This document shows positions 14,241-16,526 of a DNA stretch of 64,000 nucleotides, in pieces; the stretch's first letter is position 1, and each line of letters starts with the position of its first letter. The notes beneath the pieces were generated by a model that did not search any database, was not told where the DNA came from, and saw only the letters and a program-made list of their open reading frames with translations. The stretch lies in the NCBI RefSeq assembly GCF_054482525.1, contig NZ_CM137006.1; one strand, given 5' to 3'. A program made the position numbers and the translations under genes.

Positions 14241-14741
14241 ATGAGCAAAAAATTTGAAGGCAGCGTCGCGCCTCGCGAGCGTATAAATATATCCTATGTC
14301 CCGAAGACGGACGGCCAGACGGCTGAAGTAGAGCTTCCGCTTAACATGCTCGTTGTCGGCGATACCGGAAATACGCAGGAGACATCCCCACTGGATGAAC
14401 GTCAGGCAGTTTCCGTTAACAAGCACAATTTCGGTGCAGTAATGGCTGAAGCAGCCATTGGCCTCAATTTTACCGTCCCCGCCACGCTGAAGGGAAGCAC
14501 AACGGACGATGAACTGAATGTGGCGCTGAATATCAAGTCACTGGATGATTTTTCACCGGACAGCGTGGCCCGGCAGGTTCCGGAAGTGAATAAATTGCTG
14601 GAACTGCGTGAAGCACTGACTGCGCTGAAGGGGCCGATGGGCAACCTTCCGGCATTCCGTACCCAGCTCCAGGCATTGCTGGAAAATGAGGAGTCCCGCG
14701 AGCAGTTGCTTAAAGAAATCGGCCAGGTGAGTGGGAAATAA
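14241..14741 (+). CDS. tssB: T6SS sheath small subunit TssB (VipA), 166 aa
   Basis: MSKKFEGSVAPRERINISYVPKTDGQTAEVELPLNMLVVGD... is a typical TssB. Confidence 0.9.
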   Translation: MSKKFEGSVAPRERINISYVPKTDGQTAEVELPLNMLVVGDTGNTQETSPLDERQAVSVNKHNFGAVMAEAAIGLNFTVPATLKGSTTDDELNVALNIKSLDDFSPDSVARQVPEVNKLLELREALTALKGPMGNLPAFRTQLQALLENEESREQLLKEIGQVSGK

Positions 14742-14982
14742 CCACCACTATTTCATTAAACAGGGTTATCCAGACATGGCGGCACACAAAAATATCTCCG
14801 GGAAACACCCCCTCTCTGACGAAGACATTTTGCAGGCGGTTTACCGGGTATGTTTCAGCCCGTCCGGTGAAATCAACCGGGATGGCGTGGATGCGCTGAT
14901 TACAACACTGGATCGCCGTATCAGTGATCTATTGGATGAGATTATCCATCTTTGTGAGTTTCAGCAGAGCGCGCCGTACTGA
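14731..14982 (+). CDS. Hypothetical 83-aa ORF between tssB and tssC; C-terminal third resembles the conserved N-terminal motif of TssC
   Basis: ORF tail ...VDALITTLDRRISDLLDEIIHLCEFQQ aligns with TssC residues ...VDSMIADIDERISRQMDVIIHAPAFQQ (14 of 27 identical by eye). DNA is diverged, so not a recent duplication. May be non-coding remnant. Confidence 0.3.
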   Translation: MGNNHHYFIKQGYPDMAAHKNISGKHPLSDEDILQAVYRVCFSPSGEINRDGVDALITTLDRRISDLLDEIIHLCEFQQSAPY

Positions 14983-15050
14983 CGGCGCGTACTTCACTGA
15001 CGGCGAAAACCCGGTTTCAGAAACACAGCTAAAACAGAAGGATTTTCAGT

Positions 15051-16526
15051 ATGTCTTTACAGGAAGAGGAACTCGTTTCCAGTCATGCCGGGCAGACTGA
15101 TCAGGCGTCGTCGCTGCTTGATCAAATCATGGCACAGACCCGTATTCAGCCCGGTTCGGAAGGTTATGACGTTGCCCGCCAGGGTGTGACAGCCTTTATT
15201 GCCAGCATCCTGCAATCCACTGCATCTGCCGAACCGGTCAATAAACTGGCCGTGGACAGCATGATTGCAGATATAGATGAACGCATCAGCCGCCAGATGG
15301 ATGTCATCATCCATGCGCCTGCCTTTCAGCAGGTCGAGTCGTTCTGGCGCTCACTGAAAACCATGGTGGATCGCGTTGATTTCCGTGAAAACATCAAGGT
15401 CAACGTGCTTCATGTCACGAAGCAGGAACTTCTGGAAGACTTTGAATTTGCCCCAGAAATTATTCAGTCCGGATTTTATAAACACGTTTATTCGTCCGGA
15501 TTCGGACAGTTTGGTGGTGAACCCATCGCTGCCGTGCTGGGCGCTTATGAGTTCAAAAATACCGCTCCTGACATGAAACTGCTGCAATACGTCAGTGCCG
15601 TGGGCGCAATGGCGCACGCACCGTTCCTCTCCTCCGTTTCCCCGGAGTTTATGGGGCTGAACTCGTGGACCGAACTGCCTAATATCAAAGATCTTTATGC
15701 CATCTTTGAAGGTCCGGCCTACACCAAATGGCGCGCCCTGCGTGACTCGGAAGATTCGCGCTATTTAGGGCTTACGGCACCCCGCTTCCTGCTTCGCCAG
15801 CCTTATTCACCAACAGATAACCCTGTTAAGAACTTTAACTATCACGAAGATGTCAGCCGGAACCACGAAGATTATCTGTGGGGTAATACGGCCTGGATGC
15901 TGGCGTGCAATGTCGCAGACAGTTTTGCCAAATACCGCTGGTGTCCAAATATCATCGGTCCGCAAAGCGGCGGCGCAGTGAAAGATCTGCCGGTGCATCT
16001 GTTCGAAACGATGGGTCAGATTCAGGCCAAAATCCCAACCGAGGTGCTGGTCACCGATCGCCGCGAATTTGAACTGGCTGAAGAGGGTTTTATCACCCTT
16101 ACCATGCGTAAAGACTCTGATAATGCAGCCTTTTTCTCTGCAAACTCGGTACAAAAACCGAAGCACTTTCCGGGCAAAGACGCAGAAACCAACTATAAGT
16201 TGGGTACGCAGCTTCCTTATCTCTTCATCATCAATCGGTTAGCGCACTACATCAAGGTGTTGCAGCGTGAACAACTGGGGTCATGGAAAGAAAGGAGCGA
16301 CTTAGAGAGGGAGCTTAATACCTGGATCCGTCAGTATGTTGCCGACCAGGAAAACCCGCCTGCGGACGTGCGCAGCCGCAAGCCTCTGCGTGCTGCCAGA
16401 GTTGAGGTTATGGATGTGGAAGGCGAACCCGGCTGGTACCAGGTCGCGCTGAGCGTGCGGCCCCATTTTAAATTTATGGGGGCAAACTTTGAGCTATCCC
16501 TGGTTGGCCGGTTAGACAGGGAGTAA
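15051..16526 (+). CDS. tssC: T6SS sheath large subunit TssC (VipB), 491 aa
   Basis: Typical TssC sequence (…FQQVESFWRSLK…, …NIIGPQSGG…). RBS AGGA precedes ATG at 15051. Confidence 0.9.
   Translation: MSLQEEELVSSHAGQTDQASSLLDQIMAQTRIQPGSEGYDVARQGVTAFIASILQSTASAEPVNKLAVDSMIADIDERISRQMDVIIHAPAFQQVESFWRSLKTMVDRVDFRENIKVNVLHVTKQELLEDFEFAPEIIQSGFYKHVYSSGFGQFGGEPIAAVLGAYEFKNTAPDMKLLQYVSAVGAMAHAPFLSSVSPEFMGLNSWTELPNIKDLYAIFEGPAYTKWRALRDSEDSRYLGLTAPRFLLRQPYSPTDNPVKNFNYHEDVSRNHEDYLWGNTAWMLACNVADSFAKYRWCPNIIGPQSGGAVKDLPVHLFETMGQIQAKIPTEVLVTDRREFELAEEGFITLTMRKDSDNAAFFSANSVQKPKHFPGKDAETNYKLGTQLPYLFIINRLAHYIKVLQREQLGSWKERSDLERELNTWIRQYVADQENPPADVRSRKPLRAARVEVMDVEGEPGWYQVALSVRPHFKFMGANFELSLVGRLDRE

What the first reader, a model, noticed from the sequence alone, without database searches (positions are those of the whole stretch)
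14731..14982. Small ORF between tssB and tssC with a TssC N-terminal-like motif
tssB and tssC are usually adjacent, but here they are 310 bp apart and the gap holds an 83-aa ORF. Its tail (VDALITTLDRRISDLLDEIIHLCEFQQ) parallels the conserved N-terminal helix of the downstream TssC (VDSMIADIDERISRQMDVIIHAPAFQQ), while the DNA is quite different. It could be a relic of another tssC 5' end left by recombination between T6SS loci, or a small peptide that mimics the TssC N-terminus.
Basis: seen in the sequence. Interest (0 to 1): 0.5.

Follow-up and report, generated by a model that had tools for sequence, protein, structure and literature searches.

The report
Leftover tssC fragment kept as mini-ORF
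The short gene between the two sheath genes of this E. coli type VI secretion cluster is an old partial copy of the start of the large sheath gene. It stayed readable for a long time but now drifts and breaks in many strains, including this one, so it is a modest evolutionary curiosity rather than a proven new component.

Summary
The window is an E. coli T6SS-2-type cluster (identical to strain 1190). tssB (14241-14741) and tssC (15051-16526) are 309 bp apart. The gap holds the RefSeq 'hypothetical protein' (Z0263 in EDL933), with a conserved ATG at 14776.

Residues 28-72 of the peptide are homologous to TssC residues 58-102, the first ordered helices of sheath domain 3. Support: hhalign E 2e-12; the six best PDB hits are all TssC/VipB; a scan of 1.84 billion proteins found, besides its own family and four apparently spurious long proteins, only TssC N-termini.

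The ORF occurs only where TssC is at least 87% identical (Escherichia, Citrobacter, Salmonella, Atlantibacter, Yokenella). More distant loci have gaps of roughly 0-65 bp (one of 162 bp).

It is best read as a partial duplicate of the resident tssC. Deep branches show past selection: the frame stayed open in three clades (P about 1e-3 under neutrality), and conserved columns match those of TssC. Recent evolution looks near-neutral, with a flat codon-position profile and 15 nonsynonymous against 3 synonymous changes between E. coli alleles. Many lineages carry stops or frameshifts. The window itself has TGG->TGA at codon 69, giving 68 aa instead of 74.

No function is shown.

The parts
14241..14741 (+). 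tssB (sheath small subunit, 166 aa); stop TAA at 14739-14741
   Evidence: Pfam T6SS_VipA E 1e-51; RefSeq annotation of the identical record
14731..14775 (+). Upstream extension of the maximal ORF (GTG start, overlaps the tssB end). Not conserved and probably not coding.
   Evidence: Allele B has no start codon here. An SD-like pairing sits only 1 nt from the GTG. RefSeq starts at 14776.
14762..14765 (+). Weak Shine-Dalgarno-like AGGG upstream of ATG 14776
   Evidence: Duplex with the anti-SD is -3.3 kcal/mol here, the same as tssB. Other clades give -4 to -11.8 kcal/mol; spacing is about 8-10 nt except in two loci whose best pairing abuts the start codon.
14776..14982 (+). Small ORF as annotated (WP_000718847, 68 aa plus TGA). 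Orthologue of Z0263; 74 aa in most E. coli.
   Evidence: AF2 predicts helices 15-26 and 35-73, mean pLDDT 84.
14857..14991 (+). TssC-homologous segment (codons 28-72 of the 74-codon frame). It runs through the in-frame TGA.
   Evidence: hhalign E 2e-12; nhmmer with a tssC 5' DNA profile; PDB and 1.84-billion-protein searches
14980..14982 (+). Nonsense codon TGA (TGG = Trp69 in the other allele-A locus read here, L071). It removes the last 6 residues, including the conserved W-R.
   Evidence: L001 compared with L071. This exact gap sequence occurs in 37 of 2257 E. coli genomes that carry the gap. The same TGA is in metagenome contigs L106, L157 and L174.
14998..15000 (+). Ancestral stop codon of the 74-aa ORF
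15018..15050 (+). Nearly invariant tssC leader and translation-initiation region (CAGAAAYAC…AAGGATTTTCAGT; SD AAGGA at 15038-15042)
   Evidence: Alignment of 14 loci from three clades. It is the least variable 30-nt windows of the whole tssB-gap-tssC region (pi 0.03-0.04). Outgroup intergenic regions share AGAAGGATTTT.
15051..16526 (+). tssC (sheath large subunit, 491 aa). The parental segment, TssC residues 58-102, is at 15222-15356.
   Evidence: Pfam VipB and VipB_2, TIGR03355; PDB VipB E 1e-247

Best explanation
The ORF is a paralogous fragment of the 5' part of tssC. It most likely arose by partial duplication of the resident tssC in the ancestor of one lineage of enterobacterial T6SS-2 (i2-type) clusters. 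The fragment was fixed between tssB and tssC as a separate 70-74-codon ORF with its own ATG and SD-like site.

Shown:
- Codons 28-72 are homologous to TssC residues 58-102. These are the first ordered helices of TssC, which bundle with a C-terminal TssB helix in sheath domain 3.
- The insertion is restricted to that lineage.

Inferred from sequence evolution:
- For a long period the reading frame and the TssC-like core residues were kept by selection, so it was probably translated.
- In present-day lineages constraint is weak to absent, and the ORF is repeatedly inactivated while tssB and tssC stay intact.

In this window it is already truncated by a nonsense mutation. My reading is that it is now a largely vestigial, dispensable mini-ORF. 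The only clearly constrained sequence in the gap today is the roughly 33-45 nt tssC leader at its 3' end.
For: Homology.

Lineage restriction and synteny:
- A gap of 293-312 bp with the ORF occurs only in loci whose TssC is at least 87% identical to the query (E. coli, E. albertii, Citrobacter youngae and C. portucalensis, Salmonella enterica, Atlantibacter, Yokenella, plus unnamed contigs).
- It always lies between tssB and tssC. Loci with TssC at or below 81% identity have gaps of about -58 to +66 bp, with one of 162 bp.

Resident origin: the family HMM scores highest on the TssC proteins of carrier loci.

Past selection:
- Three clades differ at about 40-45% of sites yet keep the start codon and frame, and the indels seen among the intact ORFs are multiples of 3.
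- Neutral simulation gives P(ORF open) of 0.10-0.12 per branch, about 1e-3 for three branches, ignoring indels.
- Between-clade differences run p2 < p1 < p3, for example 19/28/41 (chi-square p 0.001 to 0.6 across between-clade pairs; below 0.02 mainly for pairs involving the Escherichia clade).
- Columns conserved between clades are the ones conserved in TssC (Spearman 0.45, p 0.002; identity 0.60 against 0.29).

Present relaxation:
- E. coli alleles A and B differ by 15 nonsynonymous and 3 synonymous changes (omega about 1.5, against 0.07 for tssB and tssC).
- Within the 70-aa clade, minimum steps per codon position are 29/33/32, against 35/10/111 for tssB and 35/21/157 for tssC. The profile stays flat for intact sequences and for the helix region alone.
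- NG86 omega is 0.53, against a neutral expectation of 0.69-0.96.
- Helix-breaking substitutions occur (L->P, H->P).

Inactivations alongside intact tssB and tssC:
- C. youngae: TGA at codon 21.
- Yokenella: frameshift plus TAG.
- E. albertii NBRC 107761: no ATG, a frameshift and stops, although TssC is 96% identical.
- Salmonella L083: TAG.
- L089 and L148: frameshifted although TssC is 99% identical to L075.
- This window: TGA at codon 69.
Against: - The ORF is intact and annotated in all 59 full-length E. coli matches sampled, of 2257 genomes that carry the gap, and in several genera.
- An SD-like element and an ATG are present in all three clades.
- The deep-branch signals mean a weakly selected function today cannot be excluded. 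Tip-branch inactivations and high tip dN/dS are also what a weakly selected accessory gene would show.
- The left boundary of the duplicated segment is not established. The N-terminal 27 residues and the upstream intergenic region show no significant similarity to the tssC start.
- My sample of intact non-Escherichia ORFs came from protein searches, so it is biased toward intact copies. The unbiased species-level sample is only five loci, two intact and three broken.
- There are no expression data. The cluster is reported as H-NS-silenced in vitro (PMC13141884).
Confidence: 0.55

Rival explanations
1. It is a still-functional, weakly selected accessory micro-protein. It is a free copy of the first domain-3 helix of TssC that binds the partner surface of that helix (the C-terminal helix of TssB). 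It would act as a decoy, chaperone or modulator of TssB-TssC pairing, sheath assembly or recycling.
For: - The ORF, start codon and SD-like site are kept in three clades across a divergence where neutral survival is about 1e-3.
- Conserved columns coincide with TssC-conserved columns.
- Between-clade codon-position bias is present.
- AF2 predicts a confident helical peptide, pLDDT 84.
- The homologous TssC helix forms the domain-3 bundle with a TssB helix in solved sheaths (PMC5807055, PMC4632598).
- The ORF is intact in essentially all E. coli genomes sampled.
Against: - There is no detectable protein-level constraint within clades.
- Proline substitutions occur in the helix.
- Independent nonsense or frameshift alleles occur next to intact tssB and tssC. 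A truncation that removes the conserved W-R is present in this window and in 37 E. coli genomes.
- The C-terminal end is variable: 58, 66, 68, 70, 74, 77 and 105 aa.
- There is no interaction or expression evidence.
Confidence: 0.25
2. What matters is the act of translating the gap, or its RNA, and not the peptide. An open, translated spacer ORF would prevent Rho-dependent polarity on tssC and the ten downstream genes, or the gap would carry regulatory signals for tssC such as an internal promoter or CsrA sites.
For: - ORF openness, ATG and SD are retained while the amino-acid sequence drifts.
- The last ~33-45 nt before tssC are nearly invariant.
- One paper cites a report that tssB and tssC are separate transcription units in EHEC, and another that CsrA represses tssC (both cited in PMC13141884). 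I could not read the primary papers.
Against: - Conservation correlates with TssC-conserved residues, which translation alone would not give.
- The stop lies 48-68 nt before the tssC ATG and its position varies, so there is no termination-reinitiation coupling.
- There is no sigma-70-like promoter or terminator hit in the gap, no Rfam match and no covarying RNA structure.
- PMC13141884 itself finds a single polycistronic tssB operon.
- Broken ORFs coexist with intact downstream genes.
Confidence: 0.12
3. The fragment was imported from a different T6SS locus by recombination, rather than duplicated from the resident tssC.
For: - The fragment is only 38-47% identical to the adjacent TssC.
- Pairwise DNA similarity is nil.
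- Some distant TssC proteins (Helicobacter, Halomonas) score nearly as well as resident ones, 33-35 bits against 35-39.
Against: - The 21 best-scoring TssC proteins are all from carrier loci.
- The fragment sits exactly at the tssC 5' side, in the same orientation and frame order.
- The divergence is explained by age, since the three clades are themselves about 40-45% divergent.
- I did not have E. coli T6SS-1 or T6SS-3 TssC sequences to test directly.
Confidence: 0.05
4. It is a chance ORF with a chance resemblance.
For: The ORF is short. The Pfam and NCBIfam hits are below threshold.
Against: - hhalign E 2e-12.
- Database-wide hits, apart from its own family and four apparently spurious long proteins, are TssC N-termini in register.
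- DNA-profile hits occur in all 12 gaps tested.
- The position is conserved in several genera.
Confidence: 0.01

Closest known systems
TssC/VipB N-terminal region (sheath domain 3 helices; Pfam PF05943 start, TIGR03355 positions ~44-76)
   Same: There is sequence homology over 45 residues. The conserved pattern is the same: D-x-(L/M)-I-x-x-(L/I)-D-x-(R/K)-I-x-x-(L/Q)-x-D-x-I-(I/L)-H-x-x-x-(F/Y)-(Q/R)-Q-x-x-x-x-W-R. A helical structure is predicted.
   Different: The ORF is only 68-74 aa against about 490 aa. It lacks domains 1 and 2, the inter-subunit beta-strands and a demonstrable ClpV-binding helix (TssC ~21-32). It scores far below the family cut-offs, so it cannot build a sheath.
Z0263 of E. 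coli O157:H7 EDL933 / RefSeq WP_000718847, WP_000123970, WP_001521869 ('hypothetical protein')
   Same: It is the same gene at the same position. TssC is Z0262 and TssB is Z0264 according to PMC6730261.
   Different: In the papers I could search, Z0263 appears only as a marker gene in one genomic survey (PMC10657854). I found no description of its TssC homology or of any function.
TagJ/HsiE1 (accessory protein that binds a TssB helix and ClpV in P. aeruginosa H1-T6SS)
   Same: It is a non-essential accessory protein, encoded in the cluster, that acts on the sheath through a helix-binding interaction (PMC4632598). This is the functional analogy for the 'mimic' reading.
   Different: There is no sequence or fold relation. 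TagJ is a full-size protein with experimental support, whereas here nothing has been tested.
Gene remnants left by partial tandem duplication (truncated paralogue next to its parent gene)
   Same: The fragment lies next to its parent, in the same orientation, and covers only the 5' part. It shows recent near-neutral evolution and recurrent inactivation.
   Different: It stayed open as an ORF with conserved parent-like core residues across deep divergence. An ordinary remnant would not be expected to do this.

Membership tests
TssC/VipB sheath large subunit (PF05943 + PF18945; TIGR03355) | Scores above the curated family cut-off | tested here: not met
   PF05943: 13.3 bits against a cut-off of 27. 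TIGR03355: 14.3 bits against 271.5.
TssC/VipB sheath large subunit (PF05943 + PF18945; TIGR03355) | Full-length architecture of about 490 aa with the sheath core domains and the gpW/gp25-like C-terminal domain | tested here: not met
   The ORF is 68 aa (74 in relatives). Only profile positions 1-26 of 301 are matched.
TssC/VipB sheath large subunit (PF05943 + PF18945; TIGR03355) | Homology to the N-terminal domain-3 helices | tested here: met
   hhalign E 2e-12 over 45 columns. The PDB top hits are TssC/VipB.
TssC/VipB sheath large subunit (PF05943 + PF18945; TIGR03355) | N-terminal ClpV-binding helix (SLLDxIM motif, TssC ~21-32) | tested here: inconclusive
   The N-terminal 27 aa give no significant match (hhalign E 0.098). 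Clade 3 has '…VSLLSDEAIKQ', which resembles the motif by eye only.
Gene remnant / pseudogene fragment | Derived from part of a neighbouring parent gene | tested here: met
Gene remnant / pseudogene fragment | No purifying selection on the encoded sequence | tested here: inconclusive
   Met within clades. Not met on the deep branches.
Gene remnant / pseudogene fragment | Independent disruptions in related lineages while the neighbours stay intact | tested here: met
   C. youngae, Yokenella, E. albertii NBRC 107761, Salmonella L083, L089, L148 and this window.
T6SS-associated accessory (Tag) protein | Conserved linkage to T6SS core genes across genera | tested here: met
   It always lies between tssB and tssC in Escherichia, Salmonella, Citrobacter, Atlantibacter and Yokenella.
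T6SS-associated accessory (Tag) protein | Expressed protein with an effect on T6SS assembly or activity | not testable with these tools
   I found no expression or mutant data. Only one searched paper mentions Z0263.
Regulatory leader peptide / coupled upstream ORF | Stop codon overlapping or adjacent to the downstream start, or a conserved attenuator or RNA structure | tested here: not met
   The stop lies 48-68 nt upstream and its position varies. There is no covarying structure, no Rfam hit and no terminator.

The most novel reading that the evidence does not exclude
The Z0263 family is a previously unrecognised T6SS accessory micro-protein born from tssC. It is a free copy of the first domain-3 helix of TssC, and it docks onto the C-terminal helix of TssB. 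It thereby tunes TssB-TssC pairing, sheath polymerisation or ClpV-dependent recycling in the T6SS-2 clusters of E. coli, Salmonella and Citrobacter. It is weakly selected and therefore often lost.
Probability: 0.22. Interest if true: 0.65.

Novelty: new member of a known kind. Interest (0 to 1): 0.33.

Why it matters
This ORF is present in about 40% of complete E. coli genomes, including O157:H7 where it is Z0263, and it is annotated only as 'hypothetical protein'. Recognising it as a tssC-derived fragment has three uses:
- It explains the unusual 309-bp tssB-tssC spacing.
- It gives annotators a reason not to treat it as an independent T6SS component or effector.
- It marks one lineage of enterobacterial T6SS-2 clusters.

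If the minority reading is right and it is a weakly selected TssB-binding helix mimic, it would be a natural, genetically encoded probe of the domain-3 interface. It would also be an example of a structural gene fragment becoming a regulator. The mixed signal of old constraint and recent decay is also a small, clean case of how a new mini-gene is born and then lost.

Tried and rejected
- Pairwise DNA comparison of the ORF with the tssC 5' end: only 7-9-nt chance words.
- tblastn of TssC 1-130 against the gap in other frames, to look for further frameshifted remnants: the visible part of the output showed only weak chance matches (E 0.64 or worse); the top of the list, including the expected in-frame match, was cut off.
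- Similarity of the upstream intergenic region and ORF start to the tssC leader and start, which would fix the left duplication boundary: local alignments place 'TATGTCTTTACAGG' on 'TATTTCATTAAACAGG' or 'TCTGT-TTTTCAGG', but shuffling gives p 0.05-0.6. Profile comparison of the N-termini gives E 0.098. I treat this as suggestive only.
- Sigma-70 promoter and intrinsic terminator scan: nothing inside the gap.
- Rfam at E<=1: nothing.
- RNAalifold on 14 loci: covariation term -0.34, no convincing structure.
- Foldseek of the AF2 model against the PDB: no match.
- Metagenome pattern scan, meant as an unbiased census of ORF integrity: it was dominated by near-identical E. coli alleles. In the same contigs tssC itself is 'broken' in 13 of 64, so singleton disruptions there (L091, L155, L166) cannot be told from assembly errors. 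Only L089 and L148, on long contigs, are used as evidence.
- Primary paper on tssB and tssC transcription units (Kim et al. 2022): not held in the library.
- A TssB-linker-peptide AF2 fusion: considered and not run, because the tool returns no inter-residue contacts or PAE and so could not show docking.

Full report
**What is in the window**

The region is an E. coli type VI secretion cluster of the T6SS-2 kind. It is 100% identical to E. coli strain 1190 (NZ_CP023386), and the tssB-to-tssC stretch queried is present in 2275 of 5426 complete E. coli genomes.
- hcp and vgrG run leftward.
- tssB (14241-14741), tssC (15051-16526), tssE, tssF and the rest run rightward.
- Between the tssB stop (14739-14741) and the tssC ATG lie 309 bp.
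- The conserved and RefSeq-annotated start is ATG 14776, giving 68 aa (WP_000718847, 'hypothetical protein').
- In EDL933 the orthologue is Z0263, lying between TssC (Z0262) and TssB (Z0264) (PMC6730261).

**The similarity to TssC is real**

- BLASTP against the adjacent TssC gives 15/32 identities at TssC 63-94, E 7e-8.
- The only Pfam and NCBIfam hits are the TssC families, in register but far below cut-off.
- A profile of 13-14 family members against a profile of 20 TssC N-termini aligns 45 ungapped columns, peptide 28-72 to TssC 58-102, with probability 97.7% and E 2e-12.
- A profile search of the PDB returns six TssC/VipB chains as its six best hits. They match at the first residues ordered in sheath structures (3j9g_B 1-37).
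- A profile scan of 1.84 billion representative proteins returned 23 hits at E<=0.001: the family itself, TssC N-termini at the same coordinates, and four long proteins matched in several short stretches (P0053, P0054, P0056, P0057) that look spurious and were not examined further.
- Pairwise DNA similarity is nil. A DNA profile of tssC 5' ends still finds the segment, in frame, in all 12 gaps tested.
- The homology runs through this window's stop codon. Most E. coli encode 74 aa ending …FQQSAPYWRRVLH, matching TssC FQQVESFWRSL. The window has TGG->TGA at 14980-14982. Exactly this gap sequence is found in 37 of the 2257 E. coli genomes that carry the gap.

**Distribution**

I scanned one genome per species with TssC as the query.
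- A 293-312-bp gap containing the homologue appeared only where TssC is at least 87% identical: E. coli-like, E. albertii, Citrobacter youngae, Atlantibacter and Yokenella.
- Every locus at or below 81% identity (Lonsdalea, Rahnella, Buttiauxella, Yersinia, Trabulsiella, Halomonas, Helicobacter and others) has tssB and tssC about -58 to +66 bp apart, with one at 162 bp.
- Protein searches added intact 70-aa versions in Salmonella enterica, C. portucalensis and unnamed contigs, and a third clade of 66-105 aa. All lie between tssB and tssC.
- The family HMM scores best on the TssC proteins of the loci that carry it.
- The simplest origin is therefore a partial duplication of the resident tssC 5' region in the ancestor of this cluster lineage.
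- I could not establish the left boundary. The N-terminal 27 residues and the upstream spacer resemble the tssC start only by eye.

**Evolution gives a two-phase picture**

Deep branches show past selection.
- The three clades differ at about 40-45% of sites in the ORF, yet each keeps the ATG, an SD-like site and the frame. The indels seen among the intact ORFs are multiples of three.
- In neutral simulations an ORF of this sequence survives 0.3 substitutions per site with probability 0.10-0.12. That is about 1e-3 for three branches, before counting indels.
- Between-clade differences follow p2 < p1 < p3 (for example 19/28/41). Position 3 is as diverged as in tssB and tssC.
- The columns that stay identical between clades are those conserved in TssC (Spearman 0.45, p 0.002).
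- So the ORF and its TssC-like helix were under selection for a long time.

Within clades that signal is gone.
- E. coli alleles A (272 genomes) and B (about 1968 genomes) differ by 15 nonsynonymous and 3 synonymous changes. tssB and tssC have omega of about 0.07.
- In the 70-aa clade, minimum steps per codon position are 29/33/32, against 35/10/111 for tssB and 35/21/157 for tssC. The profile is also flat for intact sequences and for the helix alone.
- NG86 omega is 0.53, against 0.69-0.96 expected under neutrality.
- Leu->Pro and His->Pro substitutions occur in the helix.

Inactivations are frequent and independent, and they sit next to intact tssB and tssC.
- C. youngae has TGA at codon 21.
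- Yokenella has a frameshift plus TAG.
- E. albertii NBRC 107761 has no ATG, a frameshift and stops, although TssC is 96% identical.
- Salmonella L083 has TAG.
- L089 and L148 are frameshifted although TssC is 99% identical to an intact relative.
- This window has TGA at codon 69.

**What the copied segment does in TssC**

TssC residues from about 61 are the first that are ordered in contracted sheaths. The N-terminal TssC helices bundle with C-terminal TssB helices to form the surface domain 3, which is involved in ClpV recycling (PMC4632598, PMC5807055, PMC5048182). AF2 predicts the peptide as helix 15-26 plus a long helix 35-73, mean pLDDT 84. A free copy could in principle occupy the TssB helix. 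That is an inference, not a result.

**Other features of the gap**

- The ~33-45 nt before the tssC ATG (15018-15050, with SD AAGGA) are almost invariant across clades. They resemble the whole intergenic spacer of outgroups and are probably the tssC translation-initiation region.
- I found no promoter or terminator consensus, no Rfam family and no covarying RNA structure.
- A report that tssB and tssC are separate transcription units, and a report of CsrA repression of tssC, are cited in PMC13141884. That paper itself finds one polycistronic operon. I could not read the primary sources.

**Verdict**

- The ORF is a tssC-derived partial paralogue that was once maintained and is now largely vestigial. 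It is truncated in this window (confidence 0.55).
- A still-active, weakly selected TssB-binding mimic (0.25) and a translation-only or regulatory spacer (0.12) remain possible.
- Import from another T6SS locus is unlikely (0.05), and chance is excluded.
- The feature is a new member of a known kind, a truncated paralogue next to its parent gene. Its interest is modest unless expression and binding are shown.

Noticed in passing
L002:3811-5202 and L073:2810-4201 (O157:H7 TX 265-1 and strain 720632); not in the window, whose tssC is 491 aa: tssC is annotated 463 aa long, with a premature stop, in O157:H7 and some other strains. This matches the published CAG->TAG nonsense mutation in vipB (Z0262) of EHEC (PMC12981562).
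   Followed up: partly
window 14241-15400 compared with L071 and L002; metagenome loci L088, L095, L141, L149, L174, L175: There is a recombination mosaic around the gap. Between L071 and L002, tssB dS is 0.18 but tssC dS is 0.013. Several metagenome contigs carry small-ORF alleles that are A/B chimeras. So a recombination breakpoint often falls inside or next to the ORF.
   Followed up: partly
P0025, P0020, P0055; L097: Natural deletion variants fuse other sequence in frame to the small ORF: TssB residues 1-26, a mid-TssB fragment, or an ORF antisense to hcp. One variant (L097) deletes the whole relic together with the last tssB codons. These look like T6SS-inactivating or gap-removing deletions in some E. 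coli lineages. Single short contigs could be assembly artefacts.
   Followed up: no
window 15018-15050: A leader of about 33 nt upstream of tssC (CAGAAAYAC…AAGGATTTTCAGT) is nearly invariant across three clades whose synonymous sites differ by 45-50%. It is more conserved than the flanking coding sequence. This suggests a constrained translation-initiation or regulator-binding site; CsrA has been proposed in the literature.
   Followed up: partly
window 14969-14990: A GC-rich hairpin (GCGCCG-TACTGA-CGGCGC, extendable to 7-8 bp) has the window's TGA stop in its loop and is not followed by a U-run. It is weaker in allele B and absent in the other clades.
   Followed up: no
L082:1767-2653: In one Logan contig tssC is cut after 234 aa and followed by a YafT-like gene. 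The rest of the T6SS cluster appears to be deleted there.
   Followed up: no
window about 2507-10557 (L001 3267-11317): Downstream of vgrG, on the minus strand, the record carries two RHS core-protein pseudogenes (one frameshifted with an internal stop, one N-terminally truncated) and small hypothetical ORFs. An ISAs1 transposase lies next to yafV.
   Followed up: no
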